Virus record (IMG/VR): IMGVR_UViG_3300042341_001047
Reading direction: 5' to 3' (one strand)
Origin: a virus
DNA length: 64,000 nucleotides
The notes below the pieces were generated by a model. That model saw only the letters and a program-made list of their open reading frames with translations. It searched no databases and was not told where the DNA came from. Both the position numbers and the translations under genes were made by a program. Below, one piece after another: positions 8,436 through 44,357 of this stretch (the first letter of the stretch is position 1; each line of letters opens with the position of its first letter).

Positions 8436-9074
8436 TTAATATTTGTAGTTCTTAGTCGCCTTACGACATTTCAACTGACTTTTAACATTATTCAATTCAG
8501 ATGTTCCCATTTCAAGACGAGCACTCTTACGCTTCATAACTAAACCTTCAATCATATCGATTGGTGTTAGTTTATCAAATAAGTCTTTAAATCCATTTAA
8601 GTAAGATTTAACACGATAAACATTTGTTGTAATATTATAAAGGTAATCTTTTTCAGAATCGACTTGACCGTAAATATTATCCAATAACTGAACTCTTTCT
8701 TGAAAAGTCTTACCAACTAAATAGTCACCATCTAAAGCAAGAATGTCAAAAATAACAAACTTATGGTTGAATGGTTGTCTAGTTTCATCAGATTTGTTCT
8801 TATTCATATACTCACCATTAAGAACGGTCCATCCACCAGTACCTCGGTAGATGTCTTTTACTTCTTCATCACTTAAACGGAAGTTAGTTAGTCTTTGATT
8901 ATGACGATTCATAACTATTGATTTAACACCATTAGTGAAAATCAAACAATTAGAACCGTTAAGTTTTGGCTGAGCAATTAGGCTATCATCATCCCAGAAA
9001 TCTAGTTCACTATCAGGAATAGCATTCTTAGGTCTTGGTGGATAGATATATCGATATGTTATAAATTTAGACAT
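8436..9074 (-). CDS. ATP-dependent ligase/nucleotidyltransferase domain protein (no OB-fold)
   Basis: Motif I QPKLNG, LNGE, FVIFDIL, EGLVMK, LKCR; only 212 aa. Confidence 0.8.
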   Translation of the reverse strand: MSKFITYRYIYPPRPKNAIPDSELDFWDDDSLIAQPKLNGSNCLIFTNGVKSIVMNRHNQRLTNFRLSDEEVKDIYRGTGGWTVLNGEYMNKNKSDETRQPFNHKFVIFDILALDGDYLVGKTFQERVQLLDNIYGQVDSEKDYLYNITTNVYRVKSYLNGFKDLFDKLTPIDMIEGLVMKRKSARLEMGTSELNNVKSQLKCRKATKNYKY

Positions 9075-40903: not shown

Positions 40904-41631
40904 AATTAAAAAAGTATAATGACTTTATTAAAGAATCTTTTGGAACGTCAGCGGAGTATAATAATTTCTTAAAATCAAAATCTATAGACTTAGATTTATT
41001 TGATGATAGTTTATTTGATGTTAAACAATTTGCTAAAGTTAATACTTATAGATATTTAATTGATTCAAAAGGAAATACTATTAATACGGAAGTTGATGAT
41101 AACGAAAAGTATAAAATACTTTACACTTGTCAAATTCAATACAATTTAAATTCCGGTAAAAATGATTTTAATAAAGTTATTGATAATTTAAATACTATTA
41201 AGATTTCTTTAGAAGAAATGATAGATAGAATTGAATCACAAGGATTAAAACTTGACAAAAATGAGTATTGGTCAGATAAAATTCTTATGAATGTGGATAA
41301 AATTACTCACACATTTTCTATATCATTCAAAAGTGATGAGATAGATACAAAAGAGTTGAAAGATAAATTTGATATCTATAACACAACACAAGATGACGAA
41401 TACTTAGAAGGGTTAAAAAAACTTAGAAATATCTATAGAGCAGAAGATATAGATTTCGACAGATATATGGACACCACCGACCAAGATGAGTTTATTTTAA
41501 TAGGAATGTTTATAGGTGATGATTTATATGGAGTAGGCATATATAATTCAGAAACTAAAGAGTTCACTATTGATAGACAAGAAATTGGAGCTTCGGTAGA
41601 TGCTTATAACGAACTAGAAGATAATGAATAA
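40900..41631 (+). CDS. Hypothetical protein with CTS-like N-terminus
   Basis: MKLKKYNDFIKES. Confidence 0.6.
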   Translation: MKLKKYNDFIKESFGTSAEYNNFLKSKSIDLDLFDDSLFDVKQFAKVNTYRYLIDSKGNTINTEVDDNEKYKILYTCQIQYNLNSGKNDFNKVIDNLNTIKISLEEMIDRIESQGLKLDKNEYWSDKILMNVDKITHTFSISFKSDEIDTKELKDKFDIYNTTQDDEYLEGLKKLRNIYRAEDIDFDRYMDTTDQDEFILIGMFIGDDLYGVGIYNSETKEFTIDRQEIGASVDAYNELEDNE

Positions 41632-41661
41632 AAAAACCCACTCATTTGAGTGGGTTTTTTT
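41630..41661. terminator. Bidirectional terminator (ACCCACT family)
   Basis: AAAAAACCCACTCA-tt-TGAGTGGGTTTTTT. Confidence 0.85.
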
Positions 41662-41663
41662 AA

Positions 41664-43115
41664 TTAAAGTTGGATAGCTTTAATCTCATTAAATAAAGCC
41701 TTCTTATCTAACTCCATCATTTTCATGATGTCAAAAACTTTATCGCTGAAGCCAGCCAAAGCAAAAACGTTTTGTTCTGGAAATTGAAGTGTAGAGTAAC
41801 CAGCCAAATCCCAAGAATAAACATATGGATTAGCTCCAAACTTTTTCTTGTATTGACTGAACTCAGAAGCGGGTGTTGTATAACCCATCCAACCTTGCAT
41901 ATCTGACAAGATGATAACTCTGTCATACTTCTTATTAGCCTTTTGGAAGATAGAACGGAAGTTCGTACCACCACCAGAGAATCTAAAAGAGTTTCTAATA
42001 GTCATTACAGAATCCATTGGATTGTAAGACATATAATTAGCGTTAGTAGAGAAAGTCATAACATCACAGTTATTAACTTTAGCTAAAATAGCTCCAAATA
42101 AAGAAGCAATTTCAGATGGTTTACCACTCATAGAACCAGAGACATCCATAACAACAAGTGTTTCGCCATCAAATACTGGTACGTTAGCAACAGAGATATC
42201 AAGTGCTTGGTTGATTGCCATAAGAACTTCTCTTACTTCTTTAGAAGAACCAACCTTACTGATTTCTTCATAAGCAGTTGAGAAACGGAATGGAAGAACT
42301 CTAGAGTTCTTAATCAACTTTTCATCAACTAACATTTCACAAGCTGCTGAAATAGAATCAGGAGATTGGGATATAATATTTCTTAGGTTTTTAAGAAGTG
42401 CAAAATATCCCAATTTTCTTGTAGAAATTAATTCAGACCAAGCATCAGACTTTAATTTAGTTAAATCTTCTTCAGACTCAGCCATTTGACCAGCTAGTGA
42501 TAACTTAGATTCCCAAGTTTGTGTGTTTTTCAACTCACCTTTAATAAGTAACTCTAAAGCTTCTTTATTTCTCATAGTAGGAACTGGGTGGACAATGTTA
42601 ACTAAGTCAACAAGTTTTACATCTTTGTTATCACCTTTATATTTGGCCAATTGGTAACCATCAAACTTATCAAAAGCCTTAGCAAATCCTTTCTTCAAAG
42701 CATTTGGGAACTTAGGACTATCCTTAGAAGTCTTATAAGCTAGATAGTAAGACATGATTTCAGTCATATCATCAACACGAACAACTACTTTATCGTAGAA
42801 GTTTTTACCCCACTCAGCACCTTCCAATTGTGAAGTTAATTCACCAGCAAGTGCGTGAGTAATACTTCTCATACCGAAACGGTCACGAGCAAAAATAGCT
42901 GCCTTAGCAATAAATTCTTTATCTTTCACTTTAGTAGAAAGTTTTCTCAATTCATCTAAAGATGTTTGAGCATTTCTATAAAACTGATCATTAACAAATG
43001 ATGTTAATAATAAAGATACTAATGCTAATTCATTAGATTGTGAATAAGCTTGACCACCTGCTAGGTTTTCAGTTAAAGTTTTTGCCTTTGGCATTGTTGT
43101 GTTAAATTTTGACAT
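41664..43115 (-). CDS. rsr: Ro60/TROVE-domain RNA-binding protein with C-terminal vWA domain
   Basis: NLAGGQAY, YQLAKY, LVNIVHP, TWE..LS, ALLKNLRN, SRVLPFRF, MIDAS DVSGSM, GGT, IILSDMQ, DLAGY, GFSDKVF. Confidence 0.92.
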   Translation of the reverse strand: MSKFNTTMPKAKTLTENLAGGQAYSQSNELALVSLLLTSFVNDQFYRNAQTSLDELRKLSTKVKDKEFIAKAAIFARDRFGMRSITHALAGELTSQLEGAEWGKNFYDKVVVRVDDMTEIMSYYLAYKTSKDSPKFPNALKKGFAKAFDKFDGYQLAKYKGDNKDVKLVDLVNIVHPVPTMRNKEALELLIKGELKNTQTWESKLSLAGQMAESEEDLTKLKSDAWSELISTRKLGYFALLKNLRNIISQSPDSISAACEMLVDEKLIKNSRVLPFRFSTAYEEISKVGSSKEVREVLMAINQALDISVANVPVFDGETLVVMDVSGSMSGKPSEIASLFGAILAKVNNCDVMTFSTNANYMSYNPMDSVMTIRNSFRFSGGGTNFRSIFQKANKKYDRVIILSDMQGWMGYTTPASEFSQYKKKFGANPYVYSWDLAGYSTLQFPEQNVFALAGFSDKVFDIMKMMELDKKALFNEIKAIQL

Positions 43116-43148
43116 AATTTTATTTTTAATTTTAATTTATTTTTAAAC

Positions 43149-43189
43149 AAAAAAGACCAGATAAAACATTTCTGTTAAATCTGGTCTTT
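43149..43189 (-). terminator. Intrinsic terminator between the ncRNAs and the Ro60 gene
   Basis: AAAGACCAGAT...ATCTGGTCTTTTTT on minus strand. Confidence 0.75.
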
Positions 43190-43197
43190 ATAATTTG

Positions 43198-43484
43198 CGC
43201 AAACAAGTAAATTTAGCCTAAGGCGTTACAAAGAATTCTCCCGAAACTCTGCCTGTGTATTATCGTGTCCATCATACGAGTTTTTTTATTTAAAGGAAGT
43301 AAACTTTTTCCTTGACTTAGCCCTTAAAAAGGATTTACAGGAGTCACCCGGACTTTTTCACTTTAATTCAGTATGTCCTTTCGGCTTCATCTGAATTCAG
43401 TAGCCTTGCTGTCGCTTAGCACTTTTTCGATCATAGTTTATATTTGAATTTATCGAAGTATCTCAAACTATCGCTATGTCTGCG
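43198..43484 (-). ncRNA. Putative long Y-RNA-like ncRNA (287 nt)
   Basis: 5' CGCAGACA pairs with 3' UGUUUGCG; bulged U; AG/CU; UAGUUUGAG/CUUAGGCUA upper stem; internal hairpins; adjacent to Ro60 gene. Confidence 0.65.
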
Positions 43485-43499
43485 TTTTAATTATATTGA

Positions 43500-43568
43500 C
43501 CAGAGAAAATTACTAAAGAGTGTTTTTTAGAATAAATGTTTCGAAGTAACTCTTTAATTTACTACTGG
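43500..43568 (-). ncRNA. Putative short Y-RNA-like ncRNA (69 nt)
   Basis: CCAG-U-AG...UAAAGAGU-UACUUCGA...ACUCUUUA...CU-CUGG; same architecture and motif as the 287-nt element. Confidence 0.65.
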
Positions 43569-43715
43569 AATTTTTTAATTGTCTTTCTTTTATATCTGAA
43601 AATCAAAAAGTTTTAATTTTCTTCAAAAAAAGTTTTTTTAATTTGTTTAGTATATATCAACCTCTAAAATTTCACTTTTTTCAAAGGTGGATTGTTTACA
43701 GATAAGTTATATACC

Positions 43716-44357
43716 TTACTTACCAATATGTTTAGAGATTTCATAAATTAATTCCTCTAACTCTTCTTCTGACATTTTATCAGTTACCTTCAAATCATCG
43801 GTATTTACAAGGTCTCCAGGCATTTCTTGTTGAACTGGAGTGATTATATAATCAGAAAATTCTTCTTTCTCTTCATCAGTAAAACATTTAACCATTGATA
43901 AATAAGACCAATCTAATTTATCTTTCCATTGTCTAATAAAATCAATTGATAAGTCATTAGCACTAATAACAGACCATAAATTTTTATCTTCAATAACTTT
44001 AGTATGATTGTCAAATGAATCAGATTGAGTAGAGATATAAAGTATCATTCTATCCCAATTAATATTTTCTTTATACTTAGTGATAAAATCATCAGATAGA
44101 TTAGAATATGTTGTCATACTTAATTCTGTAATATCTTCGATATTTAAATACTCCATTTCAATAGCTTTAATAATAAACTCTTCTGAAAAATTCAAACCTT
44201 GAATAAGAACTTCTTTATCTAAAAGGTCTGTACATTCTAAAATAGTATCTTCGGATAATTCATAATTTCTAACAATATCATATGTTTCATATCCACTTGA
44301 TAATAATTCAATTACCCAACTTCTATCTAGTTTTCCTTCTATTTCAATTTTTTCCAT
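43716..44357 (-). CDS. Short helical repeat (tryptophan-repeat-like) protein
   Basis: LSDDFITKYKENINW / LSIDFIRQWKDKLDW repeats. Confidence 0.6.
   Translation of the reverse strand: MEKIEIEGKLDRSWVIELLSSGYETYDIVRNYELSEDTILECTDLLDKEVLIQGLNFSEEFIIKAIEMEYLNIEDITELSMTTYSNLSDDFITKYKENINWDRMILYISTQSDSFDNHTKVIEDKNLWSVISANDLSIDFIRQWKDKLDWSYLSMVKCFTDEEKEEFSDYIITPVQQEMPGDLVNTDDLKVTDKMSEEELEELIYEISKHIGK

What the first reader, a model, noticed from the sequence alone, without database searches (positions are those of the whole stretch)
41664..43568. Phage-encoded Ro60 with two tandem, unannotated Y-RNA-like ncRNAs
Seen: the 600-bp ORF-free region upstream of the Ro60/TROVE gene holds two minus-strand elements with the same architecture: terminal stem, single bulged U, AG/CU pair, internal loop, upper stem ending GAG, then (U/A)UACUUCGA. 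Element 1 (43568-43500) is CCAG-U-AG...UAAAGAGU/ACUCUUUA...CU-CUGG. Element 2 (43484-43198) is CGCAGACA-U-AG...UAGUUUGAG/CUUAGGCUA...CU-UGUUUGCG. The stems differ in sequence yet both pair, which is covariation-like support. Established: Ro60 binds Y RNAs at a 5'/3' stem with a bulged pyrimidine, and bacterial Y RNA genes lie next to rsr. Inference: a phage Ro60 RNP with a minimal and a large Y RNA, neither with the tRNA-like module of YrlA. It could act in RNA decay or repair, or in counter-defence.
Basis: partly seen in the sequence, partly recalled or inferred. Interest (0 to 1): 0.88.

Follow-up and report, generated by a model that had tools for sequence, protein, structure and literature searches.

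The report
Phage Ro60 with two Y RNAs
Just upstream of its Ro60 gene this large freshwater phage encodes two conserved folded RNAs that share one docking stem found beside Ro60 genes in many phages and bacteria. They are very probably the protein's Y-RNA partners: one is a bare stem-loop, the other carries a 230-base folded domain of unknown role where relatives carry a tRNA look-alike.

Summary
Both elements exist at the stated coordinates, on the Ro60 strand, in a stretch with no ORF over 28 aa. A strong terminator hairpin separates them from the Ro60 start.

All 24 related phage loci keep both elements, with strong compensatory change:
- E1: 98% of cells paired, 10 of 16 pairs with double changes.
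- E2 closing stem: 99% paired, 8 of 10 pairs.

E1 and E2 share one "handle": closing stem, one bulged pyrimidine, 2 bp, a 3-nt/6-nt internal loop, a 9-10 bp stem, then UACUUCG.

A covariance model built from E1 alone finds this handle beside Ro60 genes elsewhere:
- in crAss-like phages;
- in 45 of 80 bacterial Ro60 loci, with all 53 hits on the Ro60 strand and 52 of them upstream.

In those loci the long versions carry tRNA-like cargo that scores below threshold against Rfam YrlA. E1 therefore looks like a YrlB-type short Y RNA. E2 looks like a YrlA-position RNA whose tRNA mimic is replaced by a clade-specific multi-hairpin domain. No Rfam family matches either element.

Binding to Ro60 and expression are untested here. 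This scan has already reported the same pair on related DNA (e1-5725556) and the same handle in other phages. Verdict: a new variant of a known kind.

The parts
41664..43115 (-). Ro60 gene, 483 aa: TROVE/HEAT ring plus vWA domain with the MIDAS DxSxS motif
   Evidence: Pfam TROVE 1.1e-17 and vWA_Ro60 1.2e-6. PHROG 850 RNA-binding protein, 7e-43. Best solved relative is Thermus phage phiLo Ro60 (9KOP/9L5Y), E 6.5e-24 over residues 12-476.
41629..41662 (-). Terminator-like hairpin after the Ro60 gene
   Evidence: 15-bp stem followed by a T-run.
43144..43190 (-). Hairpin plus U-run between E2 and the Ro60 start; likely terminator of the RNA unit
   Evidence: -21.1 kcal/mol, z -6.5, 0/200 shuffles. 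Present in all relatives, with variable apical parts.
43198..43484 (-). E2, 287 nt: handle plus a cargo of about 230 nt
43454..43484 (-). E2 5' half of the handle: closing stem 43484-43477, bulged U 43476, 2 bp 43475-43474, loop CGA 43473-43471, upper stem 43470-43462, A 43461, UACUUCG 43460-43454
   Evidence: Closing helix plus the 2-bp step: 98.8% paired, 8/10 pairs with double changes.
43223..43453 (-). E2 cargo: several hairpins around conserved single strands. Hairpins with compensatory change lie at about 43264-43278, 43228-43252 (GNRA-capped in the window) and 43313-43346
   Evidence: RNAalifold on 13 relatives. Pair counts. nhmmer finds the cargo only in the closest part of the clade. 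No Rfam match.
43198..43222 (-). E2 3' half of the handle: upper stem 43222-43214, 6-nt loop 43213-43208, CU 43207-43206, closing stem 43205-43198
43500..43568 (-). E1, 69 nt: handle with only a 27-nt A/U-rich apical loop. Closing stem 43568-43565/43503-43500, bulged U 43564, AG/CU 43563-43562/43505-43504, loop 43561-43559, upper stem 43558-43549/43521-43512, UACUUCG 43548-43542
   Evidence: Model R1 scores it at 81.3 bits.
43588..43613 (-). Conserved upstream box (AAACTTTT, 10-18 nt, WATAAAA) about 20 nt before E1; candidate promoter of the E1-E2 unit
   Evidence: Occurs once in the 64-kb window. Seen by eye in most relatives. No function shown.

Best explanation
E1 and E2 are the phage's own Y RNAs, partners of the Ro60 ring protein encoded next to them. 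They are probably made as one unit, from a conserved upstream box to the hairpin with a U-run at 43190-43144, and then trimmed. Each folds so that its 5' and 3' ends form one shared handle: closing stem, one bulged pyrimidine, 2 bp, a small asymmetric internal loop, a 9-10 bp stem and the junction motif UACUUCG. Ro60 is inferred to grip this handle on its outer basic surface, as it grips the stem of known Y RNAs. The apical part is the variable module. E1 offers only an A-rich single-stranded loop and is the YrlB-like form; it could gate the ring or bind the single-strand-binding domains of a host exoribonuclease such as PNPase. E2 displays a 230-nt multi-hairpin domain where relatives display a tRNA mimic, and it presumably recruits a different, unknown effector or substrate. 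Shown here: the conserved structure, the shared handle, its linkage to Ro60 genes across phages and bacteria, and the absence of a tRNA-like domain. Inferred: binding, processing and function during infection.
For: Structure: covariation in E1 and E2; both elements are present in 24/24 related loci.
Linkage to Ro60:
- Model R1, built from E1 only, hits beside Ro60 in cr111_1 (E 1e-7) and csAssE-Sib (E 5e-7), and twice downstream of the TROVE gene in cr106_1.
- Among 80 IMG/VR loci picked by a short pattern, all 7 that hold a TROVE gene have R1 hits. None of the 69 R1-negative loci holds one.
- In 80 bacterial Ro60 loci there are 53 hits in 45 loci, all on the Ro60 strand, 52 upstream. These show 94.4% pairing, and 16/16 pairs have double changes.
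Link to Y RNAs:
- Long handle-bearing RNAs overlap YrlA matches of 28-41 bits, E down to 7e-6.
- The YrlA model aligns its conserved 5' junction to the handle's junction.
Precedent:
- Bacterial Y RNAs lie next to rsr and are modular (PMC4201824; 10.1101/312249).
- Thermus phage phiLo has two Y-like RNAs upstream of its Ro60 that bind it in vitro and form complexes with host PNPase (PMC12135203). That protein is the closest solved relative of this one.
- The terminator between E2 and the gene argues for separate RNAs.
Against: - There is no binding or expression evidence.
- The canonical motifs (GGUCCGA; GNCGAA(N)G) are absent as such. Rfam Y_RNA and YrlA do not match E1 or E2 even at E<=10.
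- R1 finds no handle beside the Ro60 genes of phiLo or a Vibrio phage, so the handle serves one Ro60 clade, not all.
- Only 3 of the 8 basic residues that matter for RNA binding in phiLo Ro60 are kept at aligned positions (the numbering offset is my inference).
- In other phages the handle also lies inside tRNA arrays on contig fragments with no TROVE gene in view.
Confidence: 0.8

Rival explanations
1. The handle is a processing or stabilising cassette for small RNAs and tRNAs of phage RNA operons: a leader-trailer clamp read by RNases or other factors, not by Ro60. It sits near Ro60 only because Ro60 genes live in or beside tRNA arrays.
For: The handle encloses RNAs that ARAGORN and Rfam call tRNAs (L046, L028). 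Handle copies lie within tRNA arrays on fragments without a visible TROVE gene. Long tRNA arrays precede bacterial Ro60 genes. TROVE genes accompany tRNA clusters in archaea (PMC6333295).
Against: This phage contig of 175 kb has no tRNA gene at all, yet keeps two handles, both next to Ro60. E1 has no cargo to process. The four TROVE-less contigs are only 5-17% complete, and the one complete genome tested has a TROVE gene. A processing role and Ro60 binding do not exclude each other.
Confidence: 0.12
2. E1 and E2 are a cis-acting leader of the Ro60 mRNA, for example an autoregulatory site where Ro60 controls read-through of the hairpin with the U-run.
For: They are on the same strand, directly upstream, and co-oriented in nearly all loci. 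A terminator lies between them and the gene.
Against: The handle lies downstream of the gene in cr106_1 and in L150, and is separated from it by tRNAs in other loci. Two to eight copies with different cargo occur per locus. The distance to the start codon varies from 78 to 168 nt, with unrelated inserts.
Confidence: 0.05
3. Chance hairpins in AT-rich intergenic DNA.
For: Single-sequence folding energies are ordinary (z -1.7 and -1.8).
Against: Covariation and conservation hold across phages and bacterial phyla. All 53 bacterial hits are on one strand.
Confidence: 0.01

Closest known systems
YrlA and YrlB, the bacterial Y RNAs of Salmonella and Mycobacterium (Chen et al. 2014, PMC4201824; Wang et al. 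2018, 10.1101/312249; Rfam RF02553)
   Same: They are encoded next to the Ro60 gene, often two per locus (one long, one short). They are modular: a stem formed by the two ends plus a variable effector module. Handle-bearing relatives of E1 and E2 carry T- and D-arm cargo that gives sub-threshold YrlA matches.
   Different: E1 and E2 do not match RF02553. The handle has an extra basal bulged helix and the motif UACUUCG instead of GNCGAA(N)G. E2's cargo is a 230-nt multi-hairpin domain, not a tRNA mimic.
Yrl1 and Yrl2 of Thermus phage phiLo with phage Ro60 (PMC12135203; PDB 9KOP, 9L5Y)
   Same: Two Y-like RNAs lie directly upstream of a phage Ro60 gene, with a stem-bulge-stem design. That protein is the closest solved relative of this one. 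Binding to Ro60 and to host PNPase was shown there.
   Different: The protein alignment is distant (HMMER E 6.5e-24 over residues 12-476; 25% identity by tblastn). R1 finds no handle in the phiLo locus. Their motif is CGAA. No large cargo domain is described.
Animal Y RNAs and Deinococcus Yrn1 (Stein et al. 2005, as cited in PMC4201824)
   Same: The 5'/3' stem carries a bulged pyrimidine inside a conserved helix, with a large loop as the second module.
   Different: The sequence of the conserved helix differs, there is no Rfam Y_RNA match, and transcription and end formation differ.
TROVE genes inside tRNA gene clusters (Morgado and Vicente 2019, PMC6333295) and jumbo-phage TROVE proteins with a 'tRNA-like partner' (PMC7824862)
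   Same: Ro60-type genes travel with tRNA arrays and tRNA-like RNAs in mobile DNA, as in the bacterial and crAss-like loci found here.
   Different: Those papers, in the passages I read, do not describe the shared handle. This phage contig has no tRNA genes.

Membership tests
Y RNA in the broad sense (Ro60-partner ncRNA) | Gene lies next to the Ro60/rsr gene | tested here: met
   E1 and E2 lie 82-453 nt upstream on the same strand. The arrangement is kept in 24/24 related loci. The handle is linked to Ro60 genes in distant phages and bacteria.
Y RNA in the broad sense (Ro60-partner ncRNA) | Long stem formed by pairing of the 5' and 3' ends | tested here: met
   Covariation.
Y RNA in the broad sense (Ro60-partner ncRNA) | Conserved helix with a bulged pyrimidine that carries the Ro60 site | tested here: inconclusive
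   A single bulged U or C next to a nearly invariant G-C pair is kept across 52 distinct sequences. The helix sequence differs from GGUCCGA, and the real contact site is unknown.
Y RNA in the broad sense (Ro60-partner ncRNA) | Physical binding to Ro60 | not testable with these tools
   No protein-RNA tool was available.
YrlA (Rfam RF02553) | tRNA-like effector module with T and D arms | tested here: not met
   No YrlA or tRNA match at E<=10 in 43050-43760. ARAGORN found none. No match in seven relatives at E<=0.1.
YrlA (Rfam RF02553) | 5' motif GNCGAA(N)G | tested here: not met
   The motif is absent from both 5' arms. The equivalent junction reads G(U/A)UACUUCG, which the YrlA model aligns to its own junction in a crAss-like relative.
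YrlB-type short Y RNA | Short RNA with the Ro60-binding stem but no tRNA-like domain, encoded beside a longer Y RNA | tested here: met
   E1 is 69 nt and consists of the handle only, 15 nt upstream of E2. No curated YrlB model exists to test sequence membership.
Animal-type Y_RNA (Rfam RF00019) | Match to the covariance model | tested here: not met
   No match at E<=10.
Ro60 protein (TROVE + vWA) | TROVE/HEAT ring, inserted vWA domain, MIDAS motif | tested here: met
   Pfam TROVE and vWA_Ro60 both score above their cut-offs. The alignment to phiLo Ro60 is full length and keeps DVSGS.

The most novel reading that the evidence does not exclude
The handle is a universal grip by which one large clade of Ro60 proteins, in huge phages, crAss-like phages and tRNA-array islands of many bacterial phyla, holds a set of interchangeable cargo RNAs. 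The cargoes range from nothing, through tRNA mimics, to RNAs that tRNA finders call genuine tRNAs. E1 would then be an 'empty' cassette, and E2 would display a new 230-nt effector domain. Under this reading Ro60 works on the tRNA pool during infection (maturation, protection from or repair after host anticodon nucleases), not only on misfolded RNA.
Probability: 0.25. Interest if true: 0.8.

Novelty: new variant of a known kind. Interest (0 to 1): 0.62.

Why it matters
Ro60 and its Y RNAs are a long-studied RNA particle whose function in bacteria and phages is still unclear. This locus gives a compact natural comparison: one protein, one shared docking stem, and two very different second modules (none, and a large folded domain). 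The same stem carries tRNA mimics in relatives. That makes two questions directly testable. Which part of a Y RNA does Ro60 read? What does the second module recruit? The handle model also gives a way to annotate Y RNAs that Rfam currently misses beside Ro60 genes in Bacteroidota, Verrucomicrobiota, other phyla and gut crAss-like phages.

Tried and rejected
- RNase P-like core in the E2 cargo (an AAAGUCCG strand with a bulged U pairing to CGGC). Rejected: in L021 the changes are compensated within the neighbouring hairpin and not in that pairing; the L012 group does not fit; Rfam gives no RNase P match.
- UACUUCG as a T-loop. Rejected: the base after G is not conserved.
- Pairing of the 5' arm pentamers with CUAUG/CUAUC in the cargo, and a UUCGAU/AUCGAA hairpin. 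Neither is conserved among relatives.
- A UUCG/UGAA mini-hairpin in the E1 loop: 85% paired but no covariation, so left open.
- RNAalifold's alternative for E2 (UAGC pairing with GCUA) has one covarying pair. I preferred the architecture shared with E1.
- R1 with filters off could not span long cargo; MFE folds were used instead.
- The sigma-70 promoter scan was no better than shuffles.
- RtcB is absent from the contig.
- Literature searches found no description of this handle. The library is incomplete, and the Chen 2014 supplements are not held.

Full report
**What is there.**
On the minus strand the window reads, 5' to 3', as follows:
- a 213-aa gene of unknown function (43716-44357);
- a conserved hairpin;
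- a conserved box (43613-43588);
- E1 (43568-43500);
- a 15-nt spacer;
- E2 (43484-43198);
- a hairpin with a U-run (43190-43144);
- the Ro60 gene (43115-41664) with its own terminator.

The protein has a TROVE domain and a Ro60-type vWA domain. It aligns over its full length to the Ro60 of Thermus phage phiLo, its closest solved relative, and keeps the MIDAS motif. The window belongs to a 175,660-bp IMG/VR virus record with 29% G+C and no tRNA genes. The nearest GenBank record is a 635-kb uncultured phage.

**The observation.**
One sequence alone is not convincing: the folding z-scores are -1.7 and -1.8. I therefore fetched 24 related loci whose Ro60 is 68-92% identical, plus the GenBank relative.

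Every locus with upstream sequence has both elements in the same order. E1 is 63-75 nt and E2 is 214-294 nt. They are 10-19 nt apart, and E2 ends 78-168 nt before the start codon.

- For E1, 98.3% of cells form pairs and 10 of 16 pairs show changes on both sides. No shuffle out of 500 reaches this, and slid registers give 34-54%.
- For E2, the closing helix plus the 2-bp step is 98.8% paired, with 8 of 10 pairs compensated. This includes AG/CU changing to GG/CC. Two cargo hairpins also covary.

No ORF longer than 28 aa lies in the region.

**The shared handle.**
E1 and E2 have the same basal module:
- a closing stem;
- one bulged U;
- 2 bp;
- an internal loop of 3 nt on the 5' side (YGA) and 6 U-rich nt on the 3' side;
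- a 9-10 bp stem;
- UACUUCG at the junction.

E1 adds only a 27-nt A/U-rich loop. E2 adds about 230 nt.

**Linkage to Ro60.**
A covariance model built from E1 alone (R1) finds only E1 in the phage's own contig. Elsewhere it finds the handle next to Ro60 genes that are only about 26-32% identical:
- upstream in crAss-like phages cr111_1 and csAssE-Sib;
- twice downstream of the TROVE gene in cr106_1.

It finds none beside the Ro60 genes of phiLo or a Vibrio phage.

A crude pattern scan of IMG/VR returned 80 loci, mostly chance matches.
- The 7 loci that contain a TROVE gene all have R1 hits.
- None of the 69 R1-negative loci has a TROVE gene.
- Four R1-positive loci without a visible TROVE gene are fragments, 5-17% complete. 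The one complete genome tested has a TROVE gene.

A scan of one genome per prokaryote species with an alignment of these Ro60 proteins gave 80 loci, 45-61% identical. They come mainly from Saprospiraceae and other Bacteroidota, Verrucomicrobiota, Chloroflexota and Cyanobacteriota MAGs.
- R1 hits 45 of these loci, 53 times in all.
- Every hit is on the Ro60 strand, and 52 of the 53 are upstream.
- On these hits 94.4% of cells pair, and all 16 pairs show double changes. That alignment was fitted to the model, which favours pairing.

The consensus keeps the following:
- the G-C pair before the bulge;
- a bulged pyrimidine;
- AG/CU;
- UGA;
- GUUACUUCG;
- a U-rich 3' loop strand.

**Relation to known Y RNAs.**
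Rfam has no match for E1 or E2, even at E<=10, and none in seven relatives. Handle-bearing RNAs with 60-80 nt of cargo do give YrlA matches of 28-41 bits, against a gathering score of 69. These occur in csAssE-Sib and in the bacterial loci, and show clear T and D arms. In that alignment the conserved 5' junction of YrlA falls on the handle's junction.

In some phages the cargo is called a tRNA outright. One example is a tRNA-Pro in L046, whose first base is the G of UACUUCG. The annotated tRNA-Tyr and tRNA-Lys of csAssE-Sib also sit inside handles, though their acceptor stems are imperfect.

So the handle looks like the Ro60-side module of a divergent YrlA/YrlB lineage. On that reading:
- E1 corresponds to the short, YrlB-like form.
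- E2 corresponds to the long form, with its tRNA mimic replaced.

**The E2 cargo.**
The cargo is a set of hairpins around conserved single strands. Several of the hairpins show compensatory change. The cargo is found by sequence only in the closest part of this phage clade. The more distant relatives keep a recognisable but diverged version. I could not identify it with any known RNA.

**How it probably works.**
Published work provides the following:
- Y RNAs bind Ro60 through the stem formed by their ends and use the other module to tether an effector (10.1101/312249; PMC4201824).
- In phage phiLo, two upstream Y-like RNAs bind the phage Ro60 and form complexes with host PNPase (PMC12135203).

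By analogy, E1 and E2 dock on the phage Ro60 through the handle. The two near-invariant sites, at the base and at the top of a stem one helical turn long, suggest a two-point grip. This is inference. E1's single-stranded A-rich loop could gate the ring or contact the S1/KH domains of an exoribonuclease. E2's domain would bring a different partner.

Only 3 of the 8 basic residues that matter in phiLo Ro60 are conserved at aligned positions, so details of the contact may differ. Nothing here shows binding, transcript ends or a phenotype.

**Rivals.**
- A processing or stabilising cassette for RNA operons is the main rival. It fits the tRNA-bearing copies. It does not explain the cargo-less E1, or a tRNA-free contig that keeps two handles exactly at Ro60.
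- A cis-leader role is unlikely, given the terminator and the variable position of the handle relative to the gene.
- Chance is excluded.

**Novelty.**
Phage Ro60 with neighbouring Y-like RNAs is known (PMC4201824, PMC12135203, PMC7824862). The papers I could search do not describe this handle, its breadth or the E2 cargo, and Rfam does not hold it.

This scan has reported the same pair on related phage DNA (e1-5725556), and handle-type RNA arrays beside Ro60-like genes in other phages (e1-272486, e1-5790182, e1-5935525). I treated those notes as leads only; the tests above were run on this window.

Noticed in passing
L021:3001-5130 (also L022, L023): The Ro60 gene of these relatives is interrupted after about residue 160 by roughly 700 nt that carry many stops in the Ro60 frame. 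The second part resumes in the same frame at ...LVDVVNLVHP. This is probably a mobile insertion or split gene.
   Followed up: partly
L014:2833-3000; L017 and L024:2846-3000: These relatives carry an extra G+C-richer insert of about 85 nt between the terminator hairpin and the Ro60 start codon. It is absent from the window and has no Rfam match.
   Followed up: no
window 43658-43692 (-): A conserved hairpin lies between the upstream 213-aa gene and E1 (z -2.6 here, -5.2 and -5.8 in relatives), followed by ATATATAC and not by a U-run. In relatives its loop reads like the UUCG...CGAAA mini-hairpin of bacterial handle RNAs.
   Followed up: partly
L028:1141-1265 and 1285-1414 (phage csAssE-Sib): The annotated tRNA-Tyr and tRNA-Lys each sit inside a full handle (closing stem, bulged U, GG/CC, UGA, upper stem, UACUUCG). 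Their acceptor stems are imperfect, so they may be tRNA mimics rather than working tRNAs.
   Followed up: partly
L031:3094-3247 (phage cr106_1): A tRNA-shaped RNA has acceptor, D and T arms but a long insertion holding a UACUUC motif in place of the anticodon loop. It follows two E1-like hairpins downstream of the TROVE gene. ARAGORN does not call it.
   Followed up: no
L154, L156, L167, L173, L191, L207, L218 and others: Bacterial Ro60 loci of this clade are preceded by arrays of 10-20 tRNA genes on the same strand: 96 tRNA matches in 20 loci. One of these loci lies in a 3.5-Mb contig, so these are not all misbinned phage.
   Followed up: partly
window 8511-8981 (-): There is a weak match to the RNA_ligase family PF09414 (26.9 bits, about at the cut-off) in a 231-aa frame. 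It is not adjacent to Ro60. No RtcB is present in the contig.
   Followed up: no
window 43150-43190 versus E1 closing stem: The terminator stem contains the same CCAG/CUGG core as the E1 closing stem. In L017 both read UCAG/CUGA, but in L021 only E1 changed. This may reflect alternative pairing or common origin; it is unresolved.
   Followed up: no
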